NCBI RefSeq assembly: GCF_004010195.1
Contig: NC_057718.1
Span: 72,741,187 to 72,805,186 of the forward strand
Origin: Chiloscyllium plagiosum
Taxonomy: Eukaryota
DNA: 64,000 nt
Direction of reading: 5' to 3'
Shown one piece after another: positions 4,890-31,735 of the stretch. A model generated the notes under the pieces. The model was given only the letters and a program-made list of their open reading frames with translations. It ran no database searches and was not told where the DNA came from. The translations under genes were made by a program, and so were the position numbers. Within the stretch, counting starts at the first letter, position 1; each line of letters starts with the position of its first letter.

Positions 4890-5200
4890 TCAAGGGCAAA
4901 ATTAAGAAAATAGTGCAACAAAGACCCTACATACAAAGCCTGTAGAATACTGATGCCACATATGCAACAAGCTGTTAGGCATAACTATATTGCTCTGTTA
5001 GCAGTTGTAATCATGTACAAAAGGGATTCATAAAGTGATCAAGAGTTCTAATTATGCATAAGGGTGTGCGCGTGGCCAAGAGTCTTCAGAGTTTGCTGAG
5101 ATTGGTCACTGTACATTGTCCCTGAATATGACGGAGTAAACCAGCTGCTGAATAACACTCACGGTTCGGTCTCTGAGAAGTGGATTGAGTTCTCCCAACA
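4890..5200 (+). repeat. ERV 5' LTR (5' part not recognisable)
   Basis: Aligns by eye with 31390-31735 (e.g. tgctctgttagcagttgtaatcatg vs tgctctgttaatagttgtaatcatg); AGTAAA at 5135; ends in ...CCCAACA immediately before the PBS. Confidence 0.8.
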
Positions 5201-5202
5201 GT

Positions 5203-5216
5203 TGGCACAGTCGGCA
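5203..5216 (+). promoter_or_regulatory. Primer-binding site, tRNA-Ser-like
   Basis: TGGCACAGTCGGCA, 2 nt after LTR end; 12/14 match to TGGCGTAGTCGGCA, the complement of a tRNA-Ser 3' end. Confidence 0.7.
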
Positions 5217-5759
5217 AACCAAGTCGTCGGAAGATTGTGACGGGAGCCCCAGTAGGGTGAGTATGTTATTTTACCATCCATATGTCGAGGATCTAACCAG
5301 TCATGGCCTCAGACTCATTCCAATAATTAAAGAACTAAAGTAACACCGTGTTTGTTCATCAAAGCAGAACCACTAGTTTATTGCTGCAAACAATGAATTG
5401 ATCATGGGAAGAGGAGGGAGAAAAGCACAGGCAAACCAATAGCAATGGATGTGAAACTGTTCAAAGACTAACACAGTTGACTTCAGTGATATACCAATAG
5501 CTAGGGAGGTGAAGCTGAAACTGACAGGCAACCTTACTGGGAAAGGTAAAGTTACTGAAAGACTGATCTAGGTGATCTTAGGAGTACTCAGGGAGAATAA
5601 GTCACAAGACAAACTGATGATGACGGCCTCAAACAGGGAGGGTGAAGAAATAGGAGGCCTCCAATGGGGTCCAGAAGGTATCCAGAAGTGCTCCGAAAGC
5701 TTGTGATTTCAAATAAACCTGCTGGACTATAACTTGGTGCTGTGTAACTTCTGACTTTG

Positions 5760-8700
5760 GAGAAAGTGCAGACTGCAGATGCTGGAGATCAGAGTCAAGA
5801 GTGTGTGGTGCTAGAAAAGCTCAGGTCATGCAGCATCCGAGGAGCAGGAGAATCGATGTTTCAGGCCAGAGCCCTTCACCAGGAATGAGGCTGGGAGCCT
5901 CCTGGGTGGAGAGATAAATGGGAGGGGGTAGAACTGGGGAGAAGGTAGCTGAGGTGGATGGAAGTGGGGGTGAAGGTGATAGATCGGAGAAGAGGGTGGA
6001 GCGGATAGGTGGGAAGGAAGATTGTCAGGTGGGAAAGGTCATGAGGATAGTGTTCAGCTGGAAGGTTGGAAGTGGGGTAAGATGTGGGGGAGGGGAAAAG
6101 AGGAAACTGGTGAAGACCACATTTAAGCCCAAGGGTTGAAAGGTCCCAAGAGGGGAAGATGAGGCGTTCTTCTTCCAGGCTTGGATGGTGACGGAGGCGG
6201 CCCAGGACCTGTATTTCCTCAGCAGAGTGGGAGGGGGAGTTGAAATGTTTGACCACGGGATGGTGGGGTTGATTGGTGCGGGTGTCCCAGAGATGTTCGC
6301 CAAAGTGATTTGCGAGTAGGTGTCCAGTTTCCCCAGTGTAGAAGAGACTGCATCGGTAGCAACAGATACAATAAATGATGTGTGGAAGTGCGAGTGAAGC
6401 ATTGATGGTTGCGGAAGGCTCCTTTGGAGCTTGGATGGAGGTGAGGGGAGAGGTGTGGGCGCAGGTTTTGCAATTCCTGCAGTGGCAGGGGAAGGTGCCA
6501 GGAGGGGAGGTGTGGACCTGACCAAGCAGTCGCAGAGGGAATGGTCTTTGTGGAAAGCGGATAGGGGTGGGGAAGGAAATATATTTCTGGTGATGGGGTC
6601 CGTTTGCAGATGGCGGAAATGTCAGTGGATGATGCAATTTATGCAGAGGTTGGTGGGATGGAAGGTGAGCATCGGGGGGGAGGGGGGGGTTTAGTCCTTG
6701 TTGCAGTTAGAGGGGTGGGTTTCGAGGGTGGAGGTGCGGGGCATGGAGGAGATGCGTTGGAGGGCATCTTCAACCATATGGGAGGGGTAATTGTGGTCTT
6801 TAGAGGAGGTGACCATCTATTATGTTCTGTGGTGGAACTGGTCCTCCTGGGAGCAGATGTGGCAGAGGCGGAGGAATTGGGAACACAGGATAGCATTTTT
6901 GCAGGAGGTAGGGTGGGAGGATGTGCAATCCAGGTAGCTGTGGGAGACGGTGGGTTTATAAAAAATGTCAGTGTTGAATTGATCATGGTTGGCGGAGATG
7001 GAGAGATCCAAGAAGGGGAGGGTGGTGTCAGAGATGGTCCAGGCGAATTTAAGGTCACGGTGGAATCTGTTGGTGAAGTTGATGAACTGTTTGACCTCCA
7101 CGTGGGAGCACAAGATGGCACCAACGCAGTCATCGATATAGCTGAGGAAAAGGTGGGGAGTGCTGCCGGTGTAACTCCTGAAGATGAACTGTTCTACGTA
7201 GCAGACAAAGAAACAGGCATAGCCCTTTTGTCTGGAGGAAGTGGGAGGATTTGAAGGAGAAGTTGTTGAGGGCGAGGACCAGTTCAGCCAAACAAATGAA
7301 TGTCAGTAGAAGAGTACTGGTGGGGACGTCAGGAGAGGAAGAAACTGGATGTCCATGGTGACGATGAGGCATTGGGGGCCAGGGAAATTTAAGTCTTGGA
7401 GGAGATGGAGAGTGTGGGTGCTGACTCGAACGTATTTGGAGAGTTCCTGGACTAGGGAGATAGGACAGTATCGAGGTAGGTGGAGATGAATTCGGTGGGG
7501 CAGGAGCAGGTTGAGACGATGGGTCGGCCTGGGTAGTCAGGCTTGTGGATCTTGGGTAGGAGGGTAAAATCGGGCGGTGGGGGGTTCTCGAATTGAGGTT
7601 GGAAGCTGTGTGTGGGTTATCCCTGAGGTGATGTGGTTGTATATGGTCTGGGAGATGCTGGTTAGATGATGCGGAGTCATGGTCATGGTCGAGCAGGCAG
7701 TAGGAGGAGGTGTCTTCGAGTTGGCGTCAGGATTCAGCGGTGTAGAGGTCAGTGTGCCAAACTACCACTGCACCCCTTTTGTCCGCTGGTTTGATGGTGA
7801 GGTTGGGGTTGGAGTGGAGGGCTGTGCGTTGTGAGGGCGAGAAGTTGGAGTGGGTGAGGCAGTTGGACAGATTGAGGCGGTCGACATCACGGCAGCAGTT
7901 TGAAATAAAGAGGTCAAGGGCGATTAGGAGGCCAACACGGGGTGTCCAGATGGATGGGGTGTGTTGGAGGCGGGAGAAGGGGTCGTCAGTGGGTGGGCGG
8001 GAATCCTGGTTGGGTTAAAAAAAGTAGGCATGGAGGGGGAGGCAAAGGCGGAAGAAACATTCAATACAGCGTGTGGAGCTCATTAATCTGGGACCGTAGA
8101 GGGACAAAGGGGAGACCTTTATGGAGGACTAAATGTTCGTCCTCAGTGAGGGGAAGGTCTGGGGGAATGGAAGACACGGCAGGGATGGCAGCAAAGACCT
8201 GGAGTGGGGCTGGAGTTCGAGGTGGGGGCAGAGACAGTTGCTCGAATGGGCACGGTTATAGAGTCAATAGTGACATCACCAAAGGAAGTGACGATCACAA
8301 AGGGGGTGGCTGTGTTAAAGGGGGCGGAAGTGACATCACGGGCAGGAAGGGCAACGTTACTATTGGGTACTCGGCTGCTGATATCAGTGGCAGCAGAAGT
8401 GATGTCACAGATATAACACACCATCCGCAGGGTGATTGCCGCAGGGCAACATACGGGGCAGAAGTGATTCTCAAGGTAGGTATTATGTCTGTGATAGTGA
8501 ATCTAGTGGCGGCAGTGGATCGTGCAGTGATCGAGGCAGCGGTAGTCTCTACAGTAGTGGAGGTGGTTGTGTGGTCAGCTGCAGGCCATGCAGTGTCGTC
8601 GGTGGCGGAAGTGATGTCATCGCAGTAGTGGAAGAACGGTTGTGTGGCTATAGCATCTGGACAGTTCAAGAGGCCAGGAGAAGGTTCTGGAAGGTTCAAG

Positions 8701-10207
8701 GAAGCACGTGTATGGAGAGATGTACATGAAAGTTTGTTTAGCTTACATTCTTTTTTGTCCGATGAAGTAGATAAATACCGTTTGTCGAGAGTATTCTTCG
8801 GAGGGTGCACAAATACACAGGTCCGCTGCAGGTCTGAGAAAGTGAGGCTCTGAGCTGGGGCAGTATGACTGTAGGTAGAGTAGATGGCGGCGCATGGCTG
8901 ATAGCATGGAGTGGAGGATCCGGAAGGAGAATCGTTGTTGAACGTTTTGAATTTGTAGTGTGTACTGGGTATCCTGTTCAGGTCCAAACTGAGTTGGTCT
9001 AAATGTGGTCCAGAGTCCATGTGGGATCAGACGGTTCCGTAGACAGGTACTGAGGAAGGAGATGTGGTTTGGTAGCAAGTCTGCTTGAGGATGTGGCTGA
9101 GAGCTTCAGGGCAGAGGAGAGGACTTGGGTTACCTCATGCAAAAATGCTATCCCATATTCCCAATTCCTCTGCCTCCACTGTATCTGCTCCCAGGAGGAC
9201 CAGTATCACCACAGAACACACCACATGGCCTCCTTCTTGAAAGACCACATAGTTGAAGATACCCTCCAACACATCTCATCCATGTCCCACACCTCCACCC
9301 TCTAACCCCACCCCACCCCTCCAACTGCAACAAGGACAGAACCCACCTGATCCTCACCTTCCACCCCATCAACCTCCACATAAATCGTATCATCTGCTGA
9401 CATTTCCACCACCTACAAACGGATCCCACACCAGGGATATATTTCCTTCCCCACCCCTATCCGCTTTCCACAAATAATGTTCCCCCTCTGACTACCTGGT
9501 CAGGTCCCCTAACTACCCACCCTCCCCTCACGGCACCTTTCCTTGCCACTGCAGAAATTGCAAAACCTGCGCTCATACCTCTCCCTTCACCTCCATCCAA
9601 GGCCCCAAAGGAGCTTTCCACATCCAAAGTTTCACCTGCACTTCCACAAATGTCATTTATTGTATTAGTTGCTCCTGATGCAGTCTCCTCTACACTGGGG
9701 AGACTGGACACCACCTCACAGAGCCCTTCAGAGAACATCTCCGGGACACCCACACCAATCAATCCCACCACCCCCTGGCTGAACACTTCAACTCCCCCTC
9801 CCACTCTGCCGAGGAAATGCAGGTCCTGGGCCGCCTCCATCGCCACTCCCTCACCACCCGATGCCTGGAGGAAGAACACCTCATCTTCCCCCTCGGGACC
9901 CTTTAACCCTAGGGCATCAATGTGGACTTCACCAGTTTACACATTTCCCCTCACCCTAGATCCAACCTTCCCCATGACCTGTCCCACCTGTCAATCTTCC
10001 TTCCCACTTATCCGCTCCATCTCCTCTCCGACCTATCACCTTCACCCCCACGTCTATCCACCTTCTTCCCAACCCCACCCCCCTCCCATTTATCTCTCCA
10101 CCCAAGGCTTCCAGCCTCATTCCTGCCTGAAACATCGATTCTCCTACTACTTGTATGCTGCATGACCTGCTGTGCTTTTTCAGCACTACACACTCTCAAC
10201 TCTGACG
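5760..10207 (-). mobile_element. Penelope-like element: long minus copy (5760-~9080) plus inverted 3' copy (~9120-10207, +)
   Basis: RT motifs (FINFTNRFHRDLKFAW..LPFLDL..FYKPT..YLD), GIY-YIG/CxxC region (CRNCKTC, IIYCICC..YTGETG); 10-bp flanking duplication tctgactttg at 5750-5759 and 10208-10217. Confidence 0.88.
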
Positions 10208-10805
10208 TCTGACTTTGTCCACTCTAGTCCAACACCAGAACTTTCGAATCACAAACATAAGAATTTGAGAGCACGACCCCTTATAACCCAAATACAGCAC
10301 CAATAAGAAGGGTACAAAGGACCGTGGACAAGGAGACAATTGAGATTGTTGTAACTGAACCATTCGTAACTGCAGACAGACAAATGCTGAAAATAAGCTT
10401 CCTTGACTGCAATGTAACAATAGGAATAGAGAAGTTTTGCACAAATTGGACAACCTGATAGAGGGGCACGACATCACCCAAGACAATGTACATGTACTGG
10501 TAAAAGCCCAACACCCAAGCCATAAGGGAAAGACTACCGCAAGGGATAATGGATAAAGCATGGATGTAAAGGGGAGATACTTACCAGAAGAAAATTAGCA
10601 CATTCAGAAATAGGATCAAAAATGCATTAGCATCAATTAGAAACAATGTTACCACAACAAAACAAGGGCCTAAAGGAACCTGTAGAGGAAAGGAAAGTCA
10701 AGCATATAGGATCAATTCTGGGTTCTAGGATCCAAGCTGAACTTATGGGATATATTTAGAAGTGTTAAAAAAATGGCATGAAGGCAGAATAACTTAAGGT
10801 GGAGA

Positions 10806-11543
10806 GGCAACAGCCTAGTAGTACTATCACTGGACTGTTAATCCAGAGACCCAGGTTATTAGATTAGATTAGATTACAGTGTAGAAACAGGCCCTTCGGC
10901 CCAACAAGTCCACACCGACCCGCCGAAGCGAAACCCACCCATACCCCTACATTTACCCCCCACCTAACACTACGGGCAATTTAGCATGGCCAATTCACCT
11001 GACCCTGCACATCTTTGTGATGTGGGAGGAAACCGGAGCACCCGGAGGAAACCCACCCACGTTATGATCTGGGGATTCTGGTTCAAATTCCACCATGTCA
11101 GATAGTGGAATTTGAATTCAATAAACATCTAGGGTGGCATGGTGGCACGGTGGTTAGCACTGCTGCCTCACAGCACAAGGGACCTGGATTTGATTCTACC
11201 CTCGGATGACTCTGTATGGAGTTTATACATTCTCCCAGTGTCTGCGTGGGTTTCCGCCCATGGTCCAAAGATGTGCAGGTTAGGTGGATTGGCTATGCTG
11301 AATTACCTGTGGTGTTCAGGGATGAGTGGGTTAGCCATGGAAATGCAAAGTTACATGGATAGGAGATGGGTGGGTGGGATGCTCTTCGGAGAATCAGTGT
11401 GGATTCATTGGGCAAATGGCCCATTTCACACTGTAGGGAATCTATGGATTCCGAGGATCTGAAATTAAGAGCTGAATGATAACCATGAATCCATTGTCAA
11501 TTGTTGGAAAAATCCGTTTGGTTCATAAACGTCCTTTAGGGAA
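10806..11543 (+). mobile_element. Second tRNA-derived SINE family copy carrying two nested HE1-like SINEs (~10857-11060 -, ~11131-11455 +)
   Basis: tRNA-like head (ggactgttaatcc..ggttcaaattcc) whose body resumes after each nested SINE. Confidence 0.6.
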
Positions 11544-11544
11544 G

Positions 11545-12457
11545 CAGAACCAGAAAACCAACCTCAAACCGGGGTTTTCATAGTTCAGATACCAAGGAGT
11601 GATTTAGTGGAACTTTTGAAAGCCCTCATATCAAAGTATGGGTAGAGGTCTTGGATAGTGACATGATCCTGAGTGGGGACCCCTAAACATACGTACAAGC
11701 CACTGTAGAGGATAGATTTTGTTGCATGTTGGTCGATACTGGGCTGGCCATCTCAATGACGGACATGCATCTCCTGATAGCCAGCGCAATCATGTATATA
11801 ACCAATCCCCAGGAAAAACCTCCTCAAAGCAAGACTTAAGTCAGATAATATTGCTATTGCTAGAAACTGATACCATTAGCACTCCCAGAAGATCATGGAT
11901 TTGTTGTAATATTGAGAGAACCATTATGGACAACAATGTATTAAGACTGTAAGGAACAGTCATTCGCTCTGACAGCAACCAAACCCTCTGGGCTAGAATA
12001 AAAAAAAAACAATGGTCCACACTTGTGGAAGCACAAGTAGCCACTTGCTCAGTGGATTGCCAGTGTATTTTACCAAGCTGATAAAAGAAAAGGAATGTGG
12101 AGCATTGTGGCATTAGCATATCCAAATTTGTAAGCAAAACATAAACAGGACTGTTGAAAGATCTGAATGTATCACCTTAAGATTGAGGAAAGGCTGCACT
12201 CACCCCAAAAACAGTAAACCACTAAAACAAAAGTGCTAAGAATAGGAGAAGTAGCAGAATAATTAGGAAAATGGGGAGTCATGAGGCCACATACTCTGAA
12301 ATTAACATGCCTATATACCCTGTGAAGAAACCAGACAAGTCACTCCATCTCAGTGGACTATACAGACCTTAACAAGATTATTAAATGGGAATATCCTATA
12401 GTAGTGGGTCAAGCTACAACATTTAATGATTTAAAAGACATTTACACCACATTTACC
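11545..12457 (+). pseudogene. ERV gag end / protease / RT N-terminus (degraded)
   Basis: DP*TYVQATVEDRFCCMLVDTG (aspartic protease motif, DTG at 11735-11743); NMPIYPVKKPDKS at 12304-12342 followed by DLNKI (RT start). Confidence 0.85.
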
Positions 12458-13650
12458 TGTTATGAAGTTAAAGACGTGTACTGTACCTTTAAAAGAGTGA
12501 ATACTGTTTTGCACTGAGAATTTAAAAGCACCTGTCATATAACTAGTTAGCAGTCTCAGAGTGTACTGGGAAATTGAAAATATGTAACATTTGGCTAGGA
12601 GACAAATACCCAAGTTGGTTGTTGTTCTGACAGCAATTCAAAATTAATCAGTTTAAATTATGCCCCAGGATACAAAAACCCAGTCAAGTTTGAATTTATG
12701 GTTTTTGCAAATCTCAAACCAGTGAGATGATCCGTTGTATAAGCAGGCATTTTCAAAGACAGATAGAGAGTAACTGCCATCGAGAAACACTGCCATTCAA
12801 AAACACTCTCTAACAAAAGTACCTTGTTCATATGAAAAATATTCGCAATAAAAGATTCACGACAACCCAGGGAGATCTTCAGCCAAAAGAAGAAAGACAC
12901 TGATGAGGACAGCTGCTGTGTGGTTTTGAAATTAAGTGGTTTTGAAATTAAGTTGATGTAACTTTAATAAAGGTTTTTATTGGAACAGTATATTGTATAG
13001 AGTTGGAGGCAGACAACTCTGTTGTTAAGAAAAAGAGGGGCTTACAGTTGTGAATAGTTGTTGTCTAATGTTCACCTTTAGAGTTAAGGAATAAATTGAT
13101 AGTATTTTTTCTTTAAATAGTGGAATTTGGGGAGTTCTCTGTCATTCATACTTTGGCAAGGTGAGCTTTTCTGGATGTTTGGTTTAATTAACAGAACGGT
13201 TCATTGCTTGTCGTAACAGTTTGGGGGCTTGGGTCTGTGATTTGGACAGGTTTAGACAGATCCAGTCTGACCTTTTGACAGATTTGAACAGATTTGGGGT
13301 AGGAAAGATCCCAGCAGATTTAAACACTTGCCAACTAGTGTCCTAGATCTTTAAATAAAACATGGGAGAGACAATTTGTTTAATTTCAGTTACTTGTGGT
13401 TGGTTAAATTAAAAATGAGAGAAATGGCTCTTAAGATTGCTAAAGAGGTTCTGAGATTTGAAGTTGATTCCCAAATTTGCCAAGAAAGTTTATAAAGACA
13501 CAAGAAGGTCATAGTTTTAGAATTAGCAAAGGGGTTAGAATTGGATCTAACCAAGGACAAAAGTAAAGCTGAAATTGTAAGGGAGTTAGTCAAGCACTTA
13601 GGTGTATCAGAGCAACAGACAGTGTAGTACAGTGAGAAAAACTTAAATTA
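12458..13650 (+). mobile_element. Truncated second LTR element (Gypsy-like): LTR 12458-13218, PBS-Pro, gag N-terminus
   Basis: TGTTATGA...TCGTAACA inverted termini; AATAAA inside; TGGGGGCT at 13222 (tRNA-Pro PBS start); decayed reading MALKIAKEVL...VLELAKGLELDLTKDKSKAEIVRELVKHL from ~13424. Confidence 0.75.
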
Positions 13651-14070
13651 CACACCATATTAAATATGGATTCTGGTCTATCCTACCTCATGCTAAATGC
13701 CAAGATATGTTTGCATTTATGGTGGCATAGGCCCGATATACTTGGACCTGACTGCCTCAAAGATTTCATATTAGCCCAGCCAGTGATGGATGCTTTGAAA
13801 GGAGTCCAGCTAATTCTGGAATGAGTAATCCTTTAATATGTAGACAACCTACTAATTGCCTCAATAAACCCAGCTAGCCACACTAAGGTCTTAGCAAAAA
13901 TCCTCTCAGTATTAGAAACAGTTGGCCTAGAAGCCAATTCCATCAAACTTCAGCTAGAAAGGGACCAAGTCACCTATCTGGGATACGACATCAGCATAGC
14001 ATCCCAAGCTCTCCCATGGAGAGAAGCAGTGCAGAACATGTCCCAACTAATTACAGTCAGGAAAATTAGT
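13650..14070 (+). pseudogene. ERV reverse transcriptase core (degraded)
   Basis: GFWSI...FAF...YTWT*LPQRFHISPA (13752-13781), YVDNLLIA (13837-13860, decayed YVDD), KLQL..QVTYLGY (13945-13986). Confidence 0.9.
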
Positions 14071-14840
14071 TAATAGTTAGAGGATCAGATAGAAGGTTTG
14101 TTGGAAATGAACAAGACTCACGGTGTGCTGCCTTTCAGGTGCCAGGATTGGAGAGGTCTTGGATCATGTCTTTGGGGTCTTGAAGGGAGAGGGGAACCAG
14201 CCCCAAGTCGTGGTCTATGTAGGTACCAACAACATAGGTTGAAAGAGGGATAGGGATGTAAGGCAGTACTTTAAGGAGTTAGGGTGGAAGCTGAGAGCTA
14301 AAACAAACAAACAAACAAACAAACTAACAGACAGACAGAGTTGTTATCTCTGGTTTGTTACCCATGCTACGTGAGAGCGAGGCAAGGAATAGGGAAAGAT
14401 ATCAGTTGAACATATGGCTGCAGGGATGTGCAGGAGGGAGAGTTTCAGGAACATGGATAATTCTGGGAAAATGGGACCTCTACAAACAGGATGGTGTTCA
14501 CTTGAACCAGAGGGGTACTAATTAATATCCTGGGTGGGAAACGTGCTGGTGCTATTCGGGTGGGTTTAAACTAGTTCAGGAGGGGGATGGGAACTTGAGG
14601 TGTAGCTCCAGCGCACAGGAGGATGAGAGTAGGGAGGGCCTGGATAGGATTTTACAGTCACAGAAATGTGCTGGCAGACTGCAAGCTGGTTTAAAGTGTG
14701 TCTACTTCAACGCCAGAAGTATCCAAAACTTTTGACGAGGATTTGTCTACTGAGGTAGTATGGGCTAAGGTGAGAAACAGGAGAGGAGAGGTCATACTGC
14801 TGGAAGATTTTTTTTTATAGGTCTTTTATAGGATTTTTTT

Positions 14841-15153
14841 TGGTGGCACGGTCACACAGTGGTTAGCACTGCTGCCTCACAGCGCTGGAGACCCGGGTTC
14901 AATTCCCGACTCAGATGACTGACTGTGTGGAGTTTGCACATTCTCCCAGTGTCTGCGTGGGTTTCCTCCGGGTACTCCGGTTTCCTCCCACAGTCCAAAG
15001 ATGTGTAGGTCAGGTGAATTGGCCATGCTAAATTGCCCGTAGTGTTAGGTAGAGGGGTAAATGTAGGGTAATGGGTGGGTTACGCTTCGGCGGGTCGGTG
15101 TGGACTTGTTGGGCCGAAGGGCCTGTTTCCACACTGTAAGTAATCTAATCTAA
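14841..15153 (+). mobile_element. HE1-like SINE
   Basis: Family copy. Confidence 0.88.
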
Positions 15154-17176
15154 TTAAGAGAGATTGAGGAGCAGCAAGTCCTGACAAGCTAAAAGGCCTC
15201 TGCAGAGTTCCAGGGATGTGGAGGAGGATAGACAAAACGATACTGGATAGGAGTGAAAGCAACAGGGTGGACTTTAACTTCCCCAACATTGACTGGAAAT
15301 GCTGTAACTCTAGTACATAGGATGGATCAGTTTTTGCCCAGTGAGCAGGAGGGTTTCCTGACACAGTATGTCGATGGGCCGACAAGAGGGGAAGCTGCAC
15401 TGGATCTGGTGTTTGGGTAATGAACCAGGCCAGATGTTTGATTTAGTGGTAGGTGAGCACTTTGAGAAAGTGGCCATAATTCAGTTACGTTTAGTTGAGC
15501 GATGGAAAGGGATACGTACATGCCACAAAGGAAAGAGTTATCAATGGAGCAAGGGCAATAATAATGCAATTAGGCAAAACTAAGGAGGCACAGAATGGGG
15601 TAGCAAAATGCAGGGGATGGGGACAATCGAAACGTGGAGCTGGTTTAAGGAACAGATATTGCATATCCTTGATAGGTATGTCCCTGCCAGGCAGGGAGTG
15701 AGTGATACGGTAAGGGAACAGTAGTTTACTACAGAAATTGCATCTCTTGTTAAGGGGAAGGAGGCGGCTTACGTGACAATGAGACGAGATGGTTCAGATA
15801 GAGTCAGAGTCAGATGTACAGCACGGTCCAACCCGTCCATGCCGACCAGATATCCCAACCCAATCTAGTCCCACTTGACCCAGCCCATATCCCACCAAAC
15901 CCTTCCTATTCATATACCCATCCAAATGCCTTTTAAATGCTGCAATTGTATCAGCCTCCATCATTTCCTCTAGCAGCTCATTCCATATACATACCACACT
16001 CTGCGTGAAAACGTTGCCCTTCAGGTTTCTTTTATATCTTTCCCCTCTCACCCTAAATCTATGCCCTCTAGTTATGGACTCCCCGACCCCAGGGAAAACA
16101 CTTTGTCTATTTATCCTATCCATGCCCCTCATGATTGTATAACCATCTATAAGATCACCCCTCAGCCTCCGACGCTCCAGGGAAAAACAGCCCCAGCCTG
16201 TTCAGCCTTTCCCTATAACTCAAATCCTCCAACCCTGGCAATATCCTTATAAATCTTTTCTGAACGATTTCAAGTTTCACAACATCTTTCCGATACGAAA
16301 GAGACCAGAATTGCACACAATATTCCAATAGTGGCCTAACCAACGTCCTGTACAGCCGCAACATGACCACTCAACTCCTGTACTCAATACTCTTACCAAT
16401 AAAAGAAAGCATACCAAACACCTTATTCACTATCCTATCTATCTGCGACTCCACTTTCAAGGAGCTACGAACATGCACTCCAAGGTGTCTTTGTTCAGCA
16501 ACACTACCTCAGACCTTACCATTAAGGTGTTTAAGTCCTGCTAAGATTTGTTTTCCCAAAATGTAGCACCTTGCATTTATCTGAATTAAACTCCATCTGC
16601 CACTTCTCAGCCCATTGGCCCATCTGATCAAGATCATGTTGTAATCAGAGGTAACATTTTTCGCTGTCCACGACACCTCCAATTTTGGTGTATCTGCAAA
16701 CTTACTAACTATACCTGTTATGCTCACATCCAAATCATTGATGTAATTGACAAAAAGTAAAGGGCCCAGCACCGATCCTTGGTCACAGGCCTCCAGTCTG
16801 AAAAACAACCCTCCACCACCACCCTCTTCTACCTTTGTGCCAGTTCTGTAATCAAATGGCTAGTTCTCTCTGTATTCCGTGAGATCTAATCTTGCTAACT
16901 AGTCTCTCATGGGGAACCTTATCGAATGCCTTACTGAAGTCCACATAGATCACATCTACTGCTCTGCCATTATCAATCCTCTTTGTTACTTCTTCAAAAA
17001 ACTCGTTAGTGAGTCATGATTTCCCACACACAAAGCTATGTTGACTATCCCTAATCAGTTATTGCCTTTCCAAATACATGTACATCCTGTCCCTCAGGAT
17101 TCCCTCCAACAACTTGTCCACCACTGACGTCAGACTCACTGGCCTATAGTTCCCTGGCTTGTTCTTACCACACTTC

Positions 17177-17474: not shown

Positions 17475-17701
17475 AAAACTTCTTAAAACAGTGGCACCAC
17501 GTTAGCCAACCTCCAGTCTTCTGGCACCTCACCTGTGACAATCGGTGATGCAAATATCTCAGCAAGAGGCCCAGCAATCACTTCTCTAGCTTCCCAGAGT
17601 TCTCGGGTACACCTGATCAGGTCCTGGGGATTTATCCAATTTCATGTGTTTCAAGACATCCAGCATTTCCTCCTCTGTAATATGGACATTTTATCAAGAT
17701 G

Positions 17702-20931: not shown

Positions 20932-21202
20932 TTCCCGGTGAATTGATCACCCTCTACATTTTCCAAAACACCATACTTGTTTGAAATGGAGATAGCCACA
21001 GAAGACTCCTACACTAACTGCCTACCTCTCTTACCTTTCCTGGAGTTAACACATCAATGTGACTGTATCTGCGACTTTACCCCTTTCTATAACTGCCATC
21101 TATCACATGCCGATCCTGTTGCAAATTCCTCACTGCCTCTAACTGTCTCTCCAACCGATCCATTCGATCTGATAGGATTCGCAACCAACAGCAATCATTG
21201 CA

Positions 21203-22421
21203 AAGTTTGTGCGAGGTTTTGTAGCTCGGGTGCTCGTCGTTGTGGTTCTGTTCGCCGAGCTGGAAGTTTTTGTTGCAAACATTTCGTCCCCTGGCTAGGC
21301 GACATCATCAGTGCTTGGGAGCCTCCTGCGAAGCGCTTCTTTGATGTTTCCTCCGGTCTGTCCCTGCCGCTTCCGGTTGTCAGTTTCAGCTGTCCGCTGT
21401 AGTGGTTGGTATATTGGGTCCAGGTCGATGTGTTTGTTGATGGAGTTTGTGGATGAATGCCATGCCTCTAGGAATTCCCTGGCTGATCTCTGTTTGGCTT
21501 GCCCTATGATAATAGTGTTGTCCCAGTCGGATTCATGTTGCTTGTTGTCTGCGTGTGTGGCTACTAAGGATAGCTGGTCGTGTCGTTTCGTGGCTAGTTG
21601 ATGTTCATGTATGCGGATTGTTAGCTGTCTTCCTGTTTGTCCTATATAGTGTTGAGTGCAGTCCTTGCATTGTATTTTGTACACTACATTCGTGGCTACA
21701 GGAAAGCCACACACACAGACCAAGTCCTAAATCATGAAAGTAACCACCCCAACACACACAAACGAAGCTGCATCAGGACACTATTCAAAAGGGCCACAAC
21801 ACAGCTGGAAGTTTTTGTTGCAAATGTTTCGTCCCCTGTCTAGGCGACATCATCAGTGCTTGGGAGCCTCCTGCGAAGCGCTTCTTTGATGTTTCCTCCG
21901 GTGTTTATAGTGGTCTTTCCCTGCCGCTTCCGGTTGTCAGTTTCAGCTGTCCTCTTTAGTGGTTGGTATATTGGGTCCAGGTCGATGTGTTTGTTGATGG
22001 AGTTTGTGGATGAATGCCATGCCTCTAGGAATTCCCTGGCTGTTCTCTGTCTGGCTTGCCCTATGATAGTAGTGTTGTCCCAGTCGAATTCATGTTGCTT
22101 GTTGTCTGCGTGTGTGTGAATTTGACTGGGACAACACTACTATCATGGGGCAAGCCAGACAGAGAACAGCCAGGGAATTCCTAGAGGCATGGCATTCATC
22201 CACAAACTCCATCAACAAACACATCGACCTGGACCCAATATACCAACCACTACAGCGGACAGCTGAAACTGACAACCGGAAGCGGCAGGGACAGACCACT
22301 ATAAACACCGGAGGAAACATCAAAGAAGCGCTTCGCAGGAGGCTCCCAAGCACTGATGATGTCGCCTAGCCAGGGGACGAAACGTTTGCAACAAAAACTT
22401 CCAGCTCGGCGAACAGAACCA
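21203..22421. mobile_element. Penelope-like insertion: two minus-strand terminal repeats, a short RT fragment and one plus-strand repeat
   Basis: GIY-YIG peptide NVVYKIQCKDC..YIGQTGR..RIHEH..REFLEAW; RT thumb YRKATHTDQVLN at ~21695-21800; 17-bp flanking duplication (1 mismatch) at 21186-21202 and 22422-22438. Confidence 0.9.
22350..22389 (+). ncRNA. Minimal type I hammerhead ribozyme motif
   Basis: GCA-CTGATGA-T-GTCGCCT(AGCC)AGGGGAC-GAAA-CG-TT-TGC: conserved core, stem II, palindromic stem III, stem I GCA/TGC. Confidence 0.75.
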
Positions 22422-25400
22422 CAACAGCAATTATTGCAGATATAATTCACAATAACCTGTAAACTCTCCTTAAACTCCCACATCTGACAAGAAGCGCATA
22501 TCCCTCTACTAAAGGCCATTTTAGCTCCTTCGCAATCTACAGACCCCGACAATAACACAGTTATTCCTCTACAAAACACTGCTCCAGGTTAAATTAATAG
22601 TTAGGGCTTATATTTTAAGTTCAAGCAAGCGACATATCTCAAAAAATATAATCAAAAAAGAACCCACTCTACTCACTCCTGCAAACTCTGTCGGCTACAC
22701 TTAAAACTATTCACTTATCTGATTCTGTGCTGTGACTTTGCCCAAAACAGTTCCTCCAAGATCAGTTGTGAATTTCACTGTTTGTTAATTTTCTCAGCTG
22801 CACTCGGATGTCCAGCGATACATGAACTCAAACAACAAAGGCAGTAACTGTGCAGGTACACTGTGGTGTCAGTTTCTTTCTCTCTCTCTTACACTGGCCT
22901 CACCATGTGCTTCCTTTGTCTGTTCTTCTCCCTTTTAAAACTGCTGTTGTTTTTGACTTTTTTTTCCAAAGTTCCAAAACAATGCAACAGCATATGAAAC
23001 AGTGATTGCTGCTTGTGGAATTCAAGGAAATCACCTCCAACACTTAAAATACCTCAATAAAAAAGGAGCAGCTGTTACAGCCAGAAATTTTTCCCGTCCT
23101 CCATCTTGGATTAACCAGATGAGACAATGGAGAGTTACAGATTAGCTAGGAAGGTTTTAAAGAGAGAGTTAAGAAGAGCAACGAGAGGACATGAGCAGTC
23201 TTTAGCAGATAGAATAAAGGAAAACCTTAAAGCTTTCTGAAGATATGTTAGGAATAAAAGGATGACTAGGGTAGGAATGGGGCAGTCAAAGACATAAGTG
23301 GGAAGTTGAGTGTGGACCCTGTGGAGATTGGAGAGGTGCTAAACGAATATTTCTCATCTGTTTTCACTCAGGAAAAGGAGAATATTGTAGAGGAGAAGGA
23401 TGAGATATGAAATATTAGACTAGAAAGGATCGAAGCTAGCTACGAAGAGGGGTTATCAATTCTAGACAGAATGAAAGCAGACAAGTCCCCTGGGCCAGAT
23501 GGGATTTATCTGGGATTCTCTGGGAAGCTAGGGTGGTGTTGGAGCCTTCGGCTTTGATCTTTGAGTTGTCGTTGTCTACAGGTTTAGTACCAGAAGACTG
23601 GAGGATTGCTAATTTTGTGTTCTTATTCAAGAAGGGCAGTAGAGATGATCCAGGTAATTATAGACCAGTGAGCCTTATGTCTGTTGTAGAAAAAGTTGTG
23701 GAAAGGATTATAAGAGATAGGATTTATAATCATCTAGCAAGCAACAATTTGGTTGCAGATAGTCAACACAGTTTCGTCAAGGGCAGGTCATGGCTCACAA
23801 ATGCCACTGAGTTTTTTGAGAAGATGAGGGTACGGCAGTTGACGTGGTGAATATGGACTTCAGGCTGTTGAAGAAAATGCAGAGGCATGGGATTGAGGGT
23901 GATTTAGCAGTTTGGATTAGAAACTGGCTTACTATAAGGAGGCAGCGAGTGGTGGTTGATGGAAAGTATTCAGTTTGGAGAGCCGGCTATGAGTAGTGCG
24001 CCACAAGGATCGGTTTTGGGACCACTGCGGTTTGTCATTTTATAAATGATTTAGATGCAGGCATAAGTGGATGGGTTAGTAAGTTTGCAGATGACACTAA
24101 AGTTGGTGGTGTAGTGGACAATGTGGAAGAATGTTGCAGATTGCAGGGGGACATGGATAAACTGCAGAATTGGGCTGAGGGGTGGCAAATGGGAGTTCAA
24201 TGCAGATAAATGTGAGGTGATTCACTTTGGGACGAATAACAGGAAGGCAGAATACTGGGTCAATGGAAAGATTCATGGTAGTCTGGGTGTGCAGAGAGAT
24301 CTTGGAGTCCATGTGCATTGATCTCTGAAAGTTGCCACCCCAGTTGATAGTGCTGTTAAGGAGGCATATACAGTGTGTTAGGTTTTATTGGGAGAGGGAT
24401 TGAATTCCGGAGACGTAATGTCATGCTGCAACTATACAAAAAGCTAGTGTGGCCACACTTGGAGTATTGTGCACAGTTCTGTTCGCCCCATTACAGGAAG
24501 GATGTGGAAGCATTGGAAAAGGTGCAGAGGAGATTTACCAGAATGTTGCCTGGTCTGGAAGGAAGGTCTTATAAGGAAAGGCTAAGACACTTAGGTCTGT
24601 TCTCAGTGGAAAAAAGAAGGCTGAGAGGGGATTTGATAGAGACATACAAGATCATCAGAGGATTAAATAGGGTATACAGTGGAAGCAATTTTCCTAGGAT
24701 GATCATGTCAGCTTGTATGAGGGGGCATACCCTCAAATTGAGGGGGGGATAGATTTAAGACAGATATCAGAGGCAGGTTCTTTAAGGGCGTGGAATGCCC
24801 TGCCTATCAATGTAGTTAACTCAGCTACATTAGGGAGATTTAAACAATGCTTGGATAAACCCATGGATGATGATGGGATAGTGTAGAGGGATTAGCTTAG
24901 ACTAGTTCACAGGTCAGTTCAACATCGAGGGCCAAAGGGCCTCTTCTGCACTGTATTGTTCTAATGTTCTAAACCTTAGTACCTAGGATCTTTCTGAAAA
25001 GGCTAGTCCACTTCAAGGACTAGCCAAATCACAGCCAAGGATCAGAGCGAGTCAGAGATGTACAGCATGGAAACAGACCCTTCAGTCCAACCCGTCCATG
25101 CCGACCAGATATCCCAACCCAATCTAGTCCCAGGAACAAGTAACCTTTGTTCAACTCAAAACGGCAATGTGCTCTACACTAGCCTTAGGGTTATCGCATA
25201 TAAGCAAATCATGTCACCTGTACCAATTCCAGAATGGGAATTACATGCAGTAGTAACTCAGAACTGTACAGAAATAAACAGACCTATAGGATATTACACC
25301 ACAAAACAACCTCTATTAATGATTAGCATCAGGACTACCAACTAAATAGACTGCATGGCATGGCAGGACAAGTAACATAGCTCCTTACCCAAATGGGACA

Positions 25401-25695
25401 CATAATACTGCACACTGGTATAATTATCAAACACAAGATGACTACAGTTAGTCTCAGACAGTCAGAGAGCTTAATCAGGAAGCAGTTTGCCACAATACGA
25501 GGGAGTAACAATTGTAAGAGATACAGGCATGAACCCCGCCACTTATTTGATACAGGAAGGTCAGCAGCACAAACATAGGGGTGGGGGAGGTAATGGTTAG
25601 GAGGTAGGATTGCAGAAGATTCTTTCGAAAGAAAAGCAGTTGGTACATATATTGTTGATGGATCATGAAAGTATGTGGATGGCGAACCAAGGAGA

Positions 25696-25867
25696 TGTGA
25701 TTCAGAGATGCCGGTGTTGGACTGGGGTATACAAATTTTTGCTATAAATTCTGTGTTACGATAGAGCCCTCCACAATCACCTGATGAAGGAGCGTCGCTC
25801 CGAAAGCTAGTGTGCTTCCAATTAAACCTGTTGGACTATAACCTGGTGTTGTATGATTTTTAACTTT
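25696..25867 (+). mobile_element. Short Penelope-terminus insertion in the ERV RNase H region
   Basis: Near-identical to 470-600; 12-bp TSD gaaccaaggaga at 25684-25695 and 25868-25879. Confidence 0.85.
25778..25812 (+). ncRNA. Minimal hammerhead ribozyme motif
   Basis: CAC-CTGATGA-A-GGAGC(GTC)GCTCC-GAAA-GC-TA-GTG. Confidence 0.7.
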
Positions 25868-27399
25868 GAACCAAGGAGAGTTTGGGCTGTAGTAAATGAG
25901 AAAGGGAAAACTGTAGCAGGAAGAGCAGGTCTTGCTCAGCGTAGGTGGTAGAGTTACTAGTTTTATTGGAGGCTCTCAAACAGAGAGCGGACCACAAAAT
26001 TAACATTTAAACAGATAGAGTGCCCATTTGCAGTCATCCTCTATTAATGATGGCTTGGAAATGAAGAGGATATACCATCTCACATTCAGCATAAGCAAAG
26101 GGTTAGGGATTTGCTGGAAGCAGCCTGGCTCCCACAGAAGCAGCAGCATTAAAGATAAAATCATATTGGAAGATAGAAACACCACCACAAAGGGAAATGC
26201 TTGGGCTGATGAAGCAGCCACATGGTTTGGGCTCCCCAGAAGGTCAACCATTGGGGGCTGTTAATGGAGATACAGTTAATACCAAAGCGCTGCAGGAAGT
26301 TGCATGCAGTAGAACAAACCAAGGAACAGGAAAAGACAAAGTATGGAGAAAAGAGAGAAAGGTGGTAACATTACCACGCATACAGCAGAAATTTTTAAAT
26401 TTAGACCAAAGGCCCCAGCATGTAGGAAGGAACAAGATGACAAGCAAAATTACCTGATGCTGGTGGTGGTGGAAAGGGATGGGAGAGATGTGGCTAAACA
26501 CTGCCAACTTTGCCGCACCTGTAACCAACATGGTAAAGGTAGAGGCATTAAAGTAAGAATGGGATACCAACCCAGACTTAAGGGGCCCATAGCAACAATT
26601 ATAAATAGACTTCACTGACCATTACCCACTTCAAGAAGAAAAACTTACTGATAAATTAATCAGTTCACCAGGCATTCTTAACCCACTATTAAGGTAGCTC
26701 GAATATGTACTGAGGAAATCATACCTAGATGGGGAGTTCCATAGCAATTAATTCTGATCAGTGACACGTTTCCTGGAAGGTATCAAAGGGAACATGTGAA
26801 CTATTAGGGATAAAACAATGCTTCCACTTCCCAAATCATCCCCAAAACTCAGATAGTGGAAAAGAATGAACCAAAGTATAAATGCAGTATTAGGAAAAGC
26901 CCCAAGCGAGAATGGAAAAGGATGGGTAAACAGAGTGTTTATGAGACCTAGGACCACCCCAAATAGGACTACTGGACCATCTCCACACAAGTTAGTAACA
27001 AGGCTAGCTCTAATATTTCCTCACGGGGTTAGAAGAGGAGGTAAAGAGTTAGTAGTCACCAAATACTGAACCGGACAATATATGCAACTGTTATGCTGAC
27101 AGTTACGTGACTTAAAAGGAAAAGTTAGAGACCAACAGATTGTAGAAGACTTAAAAACAAAAACAGACATGAGTTAAGACAAATGCTACCCAAGCATTGG
27201 CAGATAAGGCAAAGGTGCAGATAGGAGCTCAAAGGGTAGGATTAGCACCAAGAAGACATGGGCCACAAAAGGTGCTAACAAGTAACACGTGTATGTGTGC
27301 GCACGCACATGAGAAGTAAAGGACACCGGAAACACTGGTCACAGGTGAAATAGCTAAACAAAACTAATACTAGTGACAACCGGAGACCTCTCTCTCCTC

Positions 27400-30300
27400 T
27401 ATGGATTTTTCCTACTCCTCCAAGTACGGTAATACGTGATCCTGACTGGGGAGCGTAATGCTATGCATTAAAGCGACCACGCAACCCAAAATCTCATATC
27501 TCAACCATATGAATCCAAAGATGTCAAGGTCGATAAAAAGATTTAACCCTCTGGAGAAGGCTTGATTATGTAGGGAATTGGAAGCCTCTGCAAACGCAAC
27601 ACATTACATGTACCAACTAATACACAAGGATCACTGTCATATGCTCATGTGGTGCCTGAGAAAATAAACTGGGGGAATTCAGACCCTTCCATAATGAGAT
27701 AGGATAAATTGAATTGGACATCAGAAAAGGTAGAAGCCCAGTGATATGGTGAAGAAACTTTACTTGGGGTTGGACATATTGGAGTTGGTCCATGCCCCCA
27801 CAAATACCAGTTTATAACAGTACTATCAGCTGCCCCCACATGGACTCTTGGTCAACTTTCTTCCCTGAAGATAATGATGGGGTAGCTAAGTACACAAAAG
27901 TATGGGGTACATTAGTACACTTGATCAGGGAAAGAACACATTGACAAGAATGGGATCAACAACCACAACAATCTCCAGTACCTGTGCAATATCTATCTTC
28001 CAGTACCATAAGACCATAATGCAAAACCAGGGAATGGTATAATAATGAAAAGATCCCACAAACGTTTTACGATGGGAGTGCCATACCAAATTGAGGTGGT
28101 GGTTTTCGAGCTAACTCCAACAGATTTGCCAGCCCAGTACGCTTCTCAAATCAGGCACTGCATATGACCTTACATAGAAACATAGAAACATAGAACAATA
28201 CAGCACAGAACAGACCCTTCGGCCCACGATGTTGTGCCGAACTTCTAACCTAGATTAAGTACCCATCCATGTACCTATCCAAATGCAGCTTAAAGGTCGC
28301 CAATGATTCCGACTCTACCACTCCCACGGGCAGCGCATTCCATGCCCCCACCACTCTCTGGGTAAAGAACCCACCCCTGACATCTCCCCAAAACCTTCCA
28401 CCCTTCACCTTAAATTTATGTCCCCTTGTAACACTCTGTTGTACCCAGGGAAAAAGTTTCTGACTGTCTACTCTATCTATTCCTCTGATCATCTTATAAA
28501 CCTCTATCAAGTCACCCCTCATCCTTCGCCGTTCCAACGAGAAAAGGCCGAGAACTCTCAACCTATCCTCGTACGACTTCCTCTCCATTCCAGGCAACAT
28601 CCTGGTAAATCTACTCTGCACCCTCTCCAAAGCTTCCACATCTTTCCTAAAGTGAGGCGACCAGAACTGCACACAGTACTCAAACTGTGGCCTAACCAAA
28701 TTCCTGTACAGCTGCAACATCACTTCACGACTCTTGAACTCAATCCCTCTGCTAATGAACGATAATACTCCATAGGCCTTCTTACAAACTCTATCCACCT
28801 GAGTGGCAACCTTCAAAGATCTATGTACATAGACCCCAAGATCCCTCTGTTCCTCCACCTGACTAAGAACCCTACCATTAACCCTGTATTCCGCATACTT
28901 ATTTGTTCTTCCAAAATGGACAACCTCACACGTGGCAGGGTTGAACTCCATCTGCCACTCCTCAGCCCAGCTCTGCATCATATCTAAGTCCCTCTGCAGC
29001 CGACAACAGCCCTCCTCACTGTCCACAACTCCACCTATCTTCGTATCATCTCCATTTCTCAGCCACTATATCCACTGCTCTACCCTCATCCACATGCTTG
29101 GTCACCTCCTCGAAGAATTCAATATGACTTGTAAGGCAAGACCTACCCTTCACAAATCTGTGCTGGCTGTCCCTAATCAAGCAGTGTCTTTCCAGATACT
29201 CGTAAATCCTATCCCTCAGTACCCTTTCCATTACTTTGCCTACCACAGAAGTAAGACTAACAGGCCTGTAATTCCCGGGGTTATCCCTATTCCCTTTTTT
29301 GAACAGGGGCACAACATTCGCTACTCTCCAGTCCCCTGGTACCACCCCCGTTGCCAGTGAAGACGAGAAGATCATTGCCAACGGTACTGCACTTTCCTCT
29401 CTTGCTTCCCACATAATCCTAGGATATATCCCGTCAGGCCCGGGGGACTTGTCTATCCTCAAGTTGTTCAAAATGTCCAACACATCTTCCTTCCTAACAG
29501 GTATCTCTTCTAGCTTACCAGTCCATTTCACACTCTCCTCTTCTACAATACGGTCCCTCTCGTTCGTAAATACTGAAGAGAAGTACTTGTTCAAGACCTC
29601 TCCTATCTCTTCCGACTCAATACACAGTCTCCCACTACTGTCCTTGATCGGACCTACCTTGCTGCATACGCACCTCTAGGTGCAATCTAAAAGGCAAGGG
29701 AGAAGAATCAAGAGGACTGGTGGAATTAGCAGAAGCCAGATATGCTTTTGTGGTAGCAACAGTAAACATCTTGACATTGAAGCCCTCAACTCAAAGATTG
29801 AGGAACTTTACAAAGAAATGAGAGGGGAGCACAAATAACAGGGGAAGACTATAAAATCATAAATAAGGCAGGAGGAGAAGGAATTAAGATCATCTACAAG
29901 ACCATTGGAAGTCTCCGACCCCGACCAATACATTAAACACCATTATCATTAGAGTATCTCACAATTAATGAGGAACCAATAGGATGCAGATATGCTCTCT
30001 GGATGGAGCCTGAACCCTAAACCAAATCAGCAAGAATCTGTTGCAAACACAACAAGGGAGGATTCCAGATTGGATTGGAAGATGAAGATTTGGAAAGATA
30101 GAGTTAGGCAAAGTGCTACCATTGTAACCCAACATCACTGAGGTAGGTTCTGAAACCAAGAGGAAACTGCAAGAAAAGGGGTAGCTTGTATATAGGACTC
30201 ATCCTACTGTTACCAACCTTTAGAATAAATCTCTCCATATCTCCACAATACTGGCCACTTTCAGCAACAAGCCCAAATACTTACAACATGTGAGATGAAG

Positions 30301-30900
30301 TGGGAAAGGGAAGTCACAGGAGTAGACTCTCAAGAGTGTACAAATACCCCAAAACAATGGTATGGTCTCCTCCTATCTGGAAGAACCCAAGACACACTGG
30401 TGAACTTAAAAATGGGAGTAAACTGTTCTTAATTCATTCGCCCAGAAAGCAATACTCACATAGCCCAACCAAAGCAGTGAATTATTACACAAGAAACATT
30501 TTACCAAGCAGAAGGGATTAATCACTGTTTACCCTCTCCTAATGTACTTACTTATAAAGGACTCCTCCTCTTTATATAGAGAATACGGAACTGATCCTAC
30601 CTCCAAAGGAAGGAGGTGAGGAAGAGTGTGTCCAAGGAATGGAGGGTGAGGATCTTAAATCGTACCATATCCCTGAGCTACCCAAAATATCACAGCTAAG
30701 ATTACCAGACACCAGCTTATGCGAGAACCAAAGGAACTTATAACAAGACAGAGCAAGAGATTGATCAACATAACAAGGACACGACACTAAACCTTTTGAT
30801 TAAGGGCTTCTTGAGACCATATGGAAATGGGGACTAAATGTGGATAAGAATTGCCTCGCAGTCCAACTAATTCTAAGTCTCAGTCAGATGATTAGCACAC
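27400..30900 (+). pseudogene. ERV env remnant (interrupted by CR1 at 28170-29657)
   Basis: Position between IN and PPT; furin-like RIKR at 29704-29715 followed, after a frameshift, by GLVELAEARYAFVVATVN..DIEALNSKIEEL; later GRIPDWI and WKWG..WIRIAS. Confidence 0.65.
28170..29657 (-). mobile_element. 5'-truncated CR1 LINE inserted in ERV env
   Basis: ORFs 29046-29594 and 28250-29026 (KSPGPDGIYP, PGNYRPVSLTS, RPQFEYCVQFW) with an internal deletion; (tttctatg)n tail at ~28172-28195. Confidence 0.92.
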
Positions 30901-30926
30901 TGGAGGAAGAAGGAGAAAGGTAGGAC

Positions 30927-31735
30927 TGATATACGGGAGGTAGCATTTAAGGAGATGCAGAGTTTAACAAGGGGTTAGTACTGCTGCCTCTCAGTGCCAG
31001 GGGCCCTGTTTCAATTCCAGCCTCAGGCGACTGTCTGTGTGGAGTTTATGTCTCCATGTTTGCATGGTTCCCTCTGGGTGCTCCAATTTCCTCCCATAAT
31101 CCAAAGATGTGCAAGTTAGGTGAACTGGCCGTGCTAAATTGCCCATAGTGTACAGGGATGTGTAGGTTAGGTGCATTAGTCAGGCGTAAATGTAGAGCAA
31201 TAACGTAGGGGAATGGGTCTGAGGGGGTTACTCTTTTGAGGGTCAGTGTGGACTTGTTGGGCCGAAGGGCCTGTTTCCACACTGTAGAAATTTTATGATT
31301 CTATGAAATGGCAAGCATATGAAAAAATTAGCTTAAACGAGCAAGCTATTGCCCAAAAGTGAGATCTGAAGAAGACTGAAACTGGGAAATTAGCCACATA
31401 GATGCGCTACATGCAACAACCCATGGAATATTCAGCACCACATTATGCAAAAAAGTGTTAGACATAACCACAGTTTGCTCTGTTAATAGTTGTAATCATG
31501 TGTAAAGGGACTCAGGACTTGTAAAGTGATCAAGCAGTTGCAATTATGTAAAAAGAGACGTGGGAACCATAAAAAGTGATGAAGCAGTTGTAGTCATGTA
31601 CAAAGGTGTGCACTTGATCAGTCACCAGAGTTTGCTCAGACTCATGCTCCCTGTATATGCTTGAATAAACCAACATTTGAAGAACACTCATGATCAGATC
31701 TGCAAGAAGTGAGTTGAGTGGCGTTCTTCCCCCAG
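30927..31735 (+). repeat. ERV 3' LTR with PPT upstream and a SINE inserted at ~30971-31305
   Basis: Purine tract gaggaagaaggagaaaggtaggac then TG; homology to 4890-5200; AATAAA at 31664. Confidence 0.75.

What the first reader, a model, noticed from the sequence alone, without database searches (positions are those of the whole stretch)
4890..31735. Hidden, near-complete ancient provirus shattered over 27 kb of a DOP1A intron
Seen: after mentally removing younger insertions, about 7.4 kb remains that reads collinearly on +: LTR (to 5200), PBS, putative gag pieces (5260-5690, 10240-10800), MLVDTG protease (11726), RT (12304; LPQRFHISP 13752; YVDNLL 13837), tether, RNase H (25648, 26193), HHCC/DDE integrase (26400-27350), env-like region, PPT and second LTR. 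No long ORF survives, so the ORF track does not show it. Known: a tether domain plus a separate RNase H plus env is retroviral rather than Gypsy architecture. Inference: an old cartilaginous-fish retrovirus lineage, antisense to the host gene, possibly unclassified.
Basis: partly seen in the sequence, partly recalled or inferred. Interest (0 to 1): 0.8.

Follow-up and report, generated by a model that had tools for sequence, protein, structure and literature searches.

The report
Ancient shattered snakehead-type shark provirus
The broken remains of a long-dead retrovirus lie spread over 27 kb of a shark gene intron; it likely belongs to the known snakehead-retrovirus-like group, is probably very old, and its envelope protein likely resembles measles-type fusion proteins rather than the usual retroviral kind.

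Summary
Confirmed. Ten pieces (7,435 nt) read in order on + as LTR-PBS-(gag)-protease-RT-tether-RNase H-integrase-env-LTR. They sit antisense in a ~51-kb intron of a Dopey gene, split by eight younger insertions. Every frame is broken.

It is not unclassified. Three RT/tether fragments, placed separately, fall in one shark clade (98/90); epsilon and foamy placements are rejected. RT signatures and a tRNA-Ser-type PBS match snakehead retrovirus and published clade Huo ERVs, by eye.

The LTRs differ by K2P 0.30-0.36, 8-12 times the distance to the orthologous copy in a second organism. Two or three other relics exist in the genome.

Env is not gamma-type: no CX6CC, and ~385 codons from furin site to anchor. 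Language-model features of a relative's Env point to F-type fusion proteins, but both folds failed. The scan noted a similar F-like shark provirus on other DNA.

Verdict: a new, unusually old member of a known kind.

The parts
4889..5199 (+). 5' LTR, about 310 nt; start approximate, ends in CA
   Evidence: Aligns to the 3' LTR and to two other genomic LTRs
5202..5219 (+). Primer binding site, tRNA-Ser type (tRNA identity recalled)
   Evidence: TGG-initial site 2 nt after the LTR; 12 of the first 14 letters match the PBS of elephant-shark CmiERV scaffold 2
5254..5263 (+). Likely major splice donor in the leader
   Evidence: Same GGGTGAGTAT after the PBS in younger relatives L035, L046, L047; function inferred
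5264..5693 (+). Leader / putative gag piece 1
   Evidence: Position only; no homolog found
5694..10212 (.). Younger nested repeats (Penelope-like by appearance, label recalled)
   Evidence: Repeat hits over most of the block
10213..10812 (+). Putative gag piece 2
   Evidence: Weak hit to the Gag part of P0028 at 10395-10517, E 0.03
11545..12465 (+). Gag end, protease (MLVDTG at 11726) and RT N-terminal part; broken
   Evidence: tblastn with relatives, RT part to E 1e-14; profile E 1.5e-15; 6 stops in 132 codons
12457..13654 (+). Inserted LTR-type fragment (TG...CA ends) inside RT
   Evidence: Read directly from the sequence; family not identified
13655..14066 (+). RT core; active-site motif reads YVDN; broken
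   Evidence: Pfam RVT_1 E 1.7e-7; tree placement
14067..24974 (.). 10.9-kb nest of younger LINE and SINE-type insertions
   Evidence: Repeat hits; LINE RT at 23440-23850
24975..25690 (+). RT thumb, tether (connection) domain and RNase H start; an ~80-nt repeat inside
   Evidence: Profile E 2.3e-13 at 25241-25573; the matching part of relatives is Pfam RT_RNaseH_2, ahead of a separate RNase_H
25691..25868 (.). Short insertion with an 11-nt target-site duplication
   Evidence: Duplication seen; a contig of organism B joins across it without the insert (run X5 record 17)
25869..27350 (+). RNase H and integrase (HHCC, core, C-terminal); broken
   Evidence: P0022 E 7.5e-20; phmmer, 5 hits in 1.84 billion proteins; IN tree
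27350..28166 (+). Env surface part (by position)
   Evidence: No significant homolog; unique sequence between IN and the furin site
28167..29654 (-). LINE fragment inserted in env
   Evidence: RVT_1 E 1.1e-6
29655..30968 (+). Env fusion subunit: furin-like site 29704, membrane-anchor motifs 30822-30875; broken
   Evidence: Colinear hits to P0006, E 3.4e-6; 67% DNA identity to a second copy, L110
30969..31287 (+). SINE-type insertion
   Evidence: Multi-copy repeat
31288..31369 (+). 3' untranslated tail with decayed polypurine tract
   Evidence: Homologous purine-rich stretch before the LTR in L110
31370..31735 (+). 3' LTR with internal duplication; AATAAA at 31664
   Evidence: LTR-host junction shared with organism B (run X5 record 23)
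2514..2765 (-). Host Dopey exon downstream of the intron
   Evidence: Dopey_N
54180..54380 (-). Host Dopey exon upstream of the intron
   Evidence: Dopey_N positions 94-161, continuing into 156-252 at the next exon

Best explanation
This is a dead, near-complete endogenous provirus, likely of the snakehead-retrovirus-like clade (Huo), lying antisense in a Dopey intron and broken up by eight later insertions. Shown: the order of parts, the broken frames, the host intron, the shared locus in a second organism, and one insert that is younger than the provirus. Inferred: an exogenous virus primed on tRNA-Ser entered a shark ancestor's germ line in one old wave; it probably made Gag-Pol by stop read-through (as its young relatives' layout suggests) and Env from a spliced RNA; the copy was tolerated because it faces away from the host transcript, and then decayed neutrally. 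Its Env was likely an F-type fusion protein, not a gamma-type one. No present function is indicated.
For: Colinearity. Each separate fragment is closest to the shark clade or its teleost kin, e.g. IN1 57% against 24-27% for epsilon, gamma and foamy. RT/tether fragments in a 9-row shark clade, 98/90. AU test rejects union with epsilon (p 7e-88) and foamy (p 0.002). The young relatives' RT signatures (LTIDY, D.xNGFWS, LPQGFHxSP) recur in the SnRV row and in Huo rows Ca_mi_ERV1, Ch_my_ERV12, Ch_pi_ERV20, Ma_te_ERV13; the window keeps decayed forms. The PBS matches CmiERV scaffold 2, Han's SnRV-like lineage I. All four family LTRs are 0.30-0.49 apart. 22 stops in 529 aligned codons. Env: no CX6CC in relatives, furin-to-anchor 408 aa in P0006 and ~385 codons here, against ~380 in foamy and ~137 in gamma Env; Atlas neighbours of a relative's Env are Fusion_gly and Baculo_F clusters at 0.92-0.93.
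Against: SnRV itself was not in my tree: the link to Huo is by eye from supplements, read from a flattened figure listing. In my tree the presumed Huo rows form a grade below class I, not one clade, and the best PDB hit of a relative's Pol is MLV RT (E 3e-84 against 7e-48 for foamy). The Pol profile was built from these relatives, which favours them. The IN tree gave no starred group for the fragments. The F-type reading has no structure behind it: pLDDT 34 and 35, no Pfam F hit in 19 of 19 Env rows, no PDB hit, Atlas recognition 1818 is below its 2300 guide, and profile comparison with foamy Env is not significant (E 0.07). The two LTRs are no closer to each other than to one other copy, and no target-site duplication was found.
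Confidence: 0.8

Rival explanations
1. A basal class I (epsilon-like, clade Mu) provirus carrying a WDSV-type Env.
For: Relatives' Pol hits MLV RT best in PDB; gag-stop-pol in one frame and a CCHC knuckle in relatives; shark Env aligns to the epsilon-like L082 Env over 366-371 columns, above 100 of 100 shuffles and above 13 of 13 other Envs.
Against: AU test rejects union with epsilon; fragments are 17-31% identical to epsilon against 31-57% to the shark clade; RT signatures are SnRV-type; the Env match is weak (probability 4-8%, missed by hmmsearch).
Confidence: 0.08
2. A lokiretrovirus, which would extend that lineage to cartilaginous fish.
For: Tether plus separate RNase H and a probably F-like Env are loki traits (PMC7947760); LTIDY occurs in loki RT too.
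Against: Loki rows read CPFGYxNSP where the window reads LPQRFHISP; relatives score far better to MLV than to Ty3; no loki reference was in my tree.
Confidence: 0.04
3. Two or more unrelated insertions of the same old family that only look like one provirus.
For: 5'-3' LTR distance equals the distance to one other copy (0.362 each); no target-site duplication; the 5' half was not checked in organism B.
Against: No domain is duplicated or missing along Pol; profile positions resume where each insert interrupts; the family has only a few copies in 3.6 Gb, so chance adjacency is unlikely.
Confidence: 0.04
4. A fish foamy-like ERV (clade Tu).
For: The window's RT core hits foamy Pol first in PDB, E 3.5e-4 against 3.5e-3 for MLV; fusion-subunit length is foamy-like.
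Against: AU p 0.002; fish foamy ERVs have YIDD, mostly a Lys PBS and no Cys-His box (PMC5210030, passages), whereas relatives here have YVDD and CCHC.
Confidence: 0.03

Closest known systems
SnRV-like ERVs, clade Huo (Xu et al. 2018, PMC6001957; passages, S2 Fig listing and S2 Data rows seen), above all turtle Ch_my_ERV12 / Ch_pi_ERV20 / Ma_te_ERV13
   Same: RT signature motifs and long stretches that match the young shark relatives by eye; simple LTR-gag-pol-env plan.
   Different: This copy is far more decayed and split; I saw no description of Env type for these ERVs in the passages read.
CmiERV lineage I, elephant shark scaffold 2 (Han 2015, PMC4422223; part 1 of 2 of the text and supplement hits seen)
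   Same: Cartilaginous-fish host, SnRV-like RT motifs, same Ser-type PBS.
   Different: LTR divergence 0.033 there against 0.30-0.36 here; no direct sequence comparison could be run.
Snakehead retrovirus (SnRV; PMC12193657 passages; RT and RNase H rows in the PMC7947760 supplement)
   Same: RT and RNase H motifs.
   Different: SnRV has accessory ORFs and a 136-residue Env tail; here only ~500 nt lie between the anchor and the LTR, 320 of them a SINE-type insert, so little room for either.
Lokiretroviruses (PMC7947760, parts 1-3 of 4 read) and foamy virus Env (PMC11468914, passages)
   Same: Env related to paramyxo/pneumovirus F, which is the likely Env type here.
   Different: Different Pol lineage; for this clade the F link is only a feature-level lead.

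Membership tests
Retroviridae (against Ty3/Gypsy) | Tether plus separate RNase H, order PR-RT-RH-IN, env before the 3' LTR | tested here: met
SnRV-like / clade Huo | Groups with SnRV in a Pol or RT tree | not testable with these tools
   SnRV was not recovered in 8 viral-collection scans; supplement sequences could only be read
SnRV-like / clade Huo | RT signatures shared with SnRV and Huo rows | tested here: met
   By eye; motif search in fetched relatives; decayed in the window itself
SnRV-like / clade Huo | Outside gamma+epsilon and outside foamy | tested here: met
Epsilonretrovirus / clade Mu | RT clade with WDSV/WEHV-type references | tested here: not met
Spumaretrovirinae | RT clade with foamy viruses | tested here: not met
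   AU p 0.002 against mammalian foamy references; fish foamy ERVs not included
Lokiretrovirus | RT motif CPFGYxNSP; sister to all retroviruses | tested here: not met
   Motif differs; tree position not tested
Gamma-type Env | CX6CC motif and short fusion-subunit ectodomain | tested here: not met
   Absent in P0006 and P0007; 408 aa against ~137 aa
F-type (paramyxo/pneumo/foamy) Env | Long fusion subunit: furin site, helices, beta-rich domains, helix, anchor | tested here: inconclusive
   Length and Atlas features fit; Pfam, PDB and folding gave nothing

The most novel reading that the evidence does not exclude
This provirus entered before the living shark orders split and survives at the same place in their Dopey introns, making it one of the oldest near-complete proviruses on record; and its Env, like that of all SnRV-like ERVs and of walleye epsilonretroviruses, has the paramyxovirus-F fold, so F-type Env is the ancestral retroviral fusogen (loki, foamy, Huo, epsilon) and gamma/beta-type Env is the later replacement.
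Probability: 0.25. Interest if true: 0.75.

Novelty: new member of a known kind. Interest (0 to 1): 0.42.

Why it matters
As a locus it is an inert fossil, and SnRV-like ERVs are already known from sharks. Two things lift it. First, age: LTRs 30-36% apart in a slowly evolving lineage give a testable, very deep date for SnRV-like viruses, and nested inserts give a stratigraphy of shark repeats. Second, Env: if SnRV-like and epsilon Envs are F-type, the fold found in foamy and loki viruses reaches into Orthoretrovirinae, which bears on the open question of where retroviral env came from. I did not find that stated in four paper searches; subscription papers such as the 2024 spumavirus cryoEM study in Cell were not visible and may cover it.

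Tried and rejected
Close copies in the own genome: none; best RT matches 30-43% among 119 other hits, from 150 scored of 1402 candidates; DNA searches gave only 63-78% relics. Env folding failed twice (pLDDT 33.9 and 35.4), and no fold search was obtained. Env profile against 339 reference ORFs by hmmsearch: nothing under E 0.9. Shark Env against foamy and gamma Env profiles: E 0.07 and 0.02, on 49 and 24 columns, not meaningful. Metagenome scan gave two Pol contigs at 39% that end at about the end of pol. Organism C (run X10) showed only short low-depth pieces and is not counted as an orthologue. The 5' junction and the large inserts were not examined in organism B. A shark clock could not be fixed: 2.2e-9 per site per year gives 68-82 My, the 2.2e-10 assumed in PMC4422223 gives an impossible 680-820 My. 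Deltaretrovirus rows were dropped from the careful RT tree after long-branch warnings, with 13 other rows, most of them near-duplicates (59 rows, 46 after 3 additions). PMC9972966 and PMC190236 were not held; PMC10587355 was seen only as a listing. bioRxiv supplements are closed.
Full report
Observation. The named motifs are at the stated coordinates. No long ORF exists in the proviral pieces. A profile of 19 natural Pol relatives hits the 64-kb window only on the plus strand and only in rising order, from 11842 to 27310, and single natural proteins map the same way. The two LTR-like segments align far above chance. The ten pieces total 7,435 nt and are separated by eight inserts, most of which hit repeats elsewhere; two hold LINE RT. 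The host is a Dopey gene on the minus strand, with consecutive exons at 54180-54380 and 2514-2765. The genome has a second Dopey locus; that this one is DOP1A is recalled. Gag is the weak part: position plus one E 0.03 hit.

Nesting. One insert has an 11-nt target-site duplication and is absent from a contig of organism B that joins straight across. This shows directly that the provirus came first there. The same runs carry pol, env and the 3' LTR-host junction at 3.0% (132 of 4,390 nt, X5) and 3.7% (134 of 3,650 nt, X7) difference, counted from the pieces listed, so the insertion is shared by two organisms. The 5' half was not checked.

Copies and age. No close copy was found. Relics at 63-78% DNA identity lie on C31 (env plus LTR), C32 (LTR) and possibly C3 (pol, perhaps a sister family). 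The LTR pair differs by K2P 0.30 with a local alignment and 0.36 +/- 0.045 with a global one. All four LTRs are about equally far apart, which fits one old wave but does not prove that these two are partners. The distance is 8-12 times the A-B distance. At the mammalian rate quoted in PMC4422223 that is 68-82 My; sharks are reported to be slower, so it is probably older, but no sound rate was available.

Relatives. The genome holds a much younger related family with LTRs 95-99% identical. It has a Pro-type PBS (recalled), a CCHC Gag, a stop between gag and pol in one frame, tether and separate RNase H. Named Env homologs are all from sharks; 16 of 16 hits are shark-labelled or unnamed. Pol homologs extend to teleosts.

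Class. I placed single-frame fragments separately. The three RT/tether fragments fall in a shark clade at 98/90, inside an 11-row group with teleost ERVs at 100/98, outside gamma, epsilon and SSSV-like references (reference labels rest on layout and recalled lengths). AU tests reject union with epsilon and with foamy. The integrase fragments are nearest the same rows but without starred support. An earlier scan note pointed to the SnRV clade, so I checked it. The SnRV RT row and Huo rows of Xu et al. share the relatives' signature motifs, and three turtle rows match them over long stretches by eye. Han's SnRV-like elephant-shark provirus has the same PBS. Against this: SnRV was not in my tree, the presumed Huo rows form a grade there, and MLV is the best PDB match. 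Loki is unlikely on motif grounds.

Env. The window keeps a furin-like site at 29704, colinear matches to the natural Env P0006 and anchor motifs near 30822-30875. The fusion subunit is about 385 codons, like foamy (~380) and unlike gamma (~137), and relatives lack CX6CC. Atlas features of a relative's Env are nearest Fusion_gly and Baculo_F clusters, as are those of the epsilon-like L082 Env at 0.90, which aligns weakly to the shark Env. Pfam, PDB and two folds gave no support. So 'not gamma-type' is shown and 'F-type' is likely, about 65%. Published F links cover loki (PMC7947760) and foamy (PMC11468914); PMC9967133 (passages) says only that epsilon Env is distinct.

Verdict. A real, cleverly spotted fossil provirus; most likely a new, very old member of the SnRV-like clade, with no sign of present function. 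Its value lies in two testable leads: orthologue dating across sharks and the fold of Huo/epsilon Env.

Papers seen: parts 1-3 of 4 plus supplement hits, PMC7947760; part 1 of 2 plus supplement hits, PMC4422223; part 1 of 4, PMC10699275; passages plus supplements, PMC6001957; passages only, PMC4977317, PMC9967133, PMC11468914, PMC12583693, PMC13524379, PMC11521997, PMC5210030, PMC12193657, PMC8922424, bioRxiv 2021.11.05.467493 and 2024.03.17.585361.

Noticed in passing
L035, L037, L040, L046, L047, L051, L052 (own genome): An abundant young family of the same clade, LTRs 95-99% identical, with a different PBS and the same non-gamma Env; Env homologs in several shark genera.
   Followed up: partly
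L082:5962-9648: The epsilon-like (WDSV-type) Env also draws F-type neighbours in the Atlas at about 0.90 and has 379 aa from furin site to first anchor.
   Followed up: partly
L034:2907-4955 against PMC6001957 S2 Data: The young shark family's RT matches turtle ERVs (Ch_my_ERV12, Ch_pi_ERV20, Ma_te_ERV13) closely by eye, hinting at shark-turtle exchange.
   Followed up: no
window 12457-13654: An LTR-type insert with TG...CA ends sits inside RT and had no hit among the fetched loci.
   Followed up: no
L110:5250-7970 and L114:7220-7480: Second relic copy (env plus LTR) and a probable solo LTR of the same old family.
   Followed up: partly
window 21803-22406: Inverted repeat with 290-nt arms, 98% complementary, 24 nt apart, inside the large nest.
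   Followed up: no
window 46697-47659 and 53003-53330: Runs of N in the same intron, outside the provirus.
   Followed up: no
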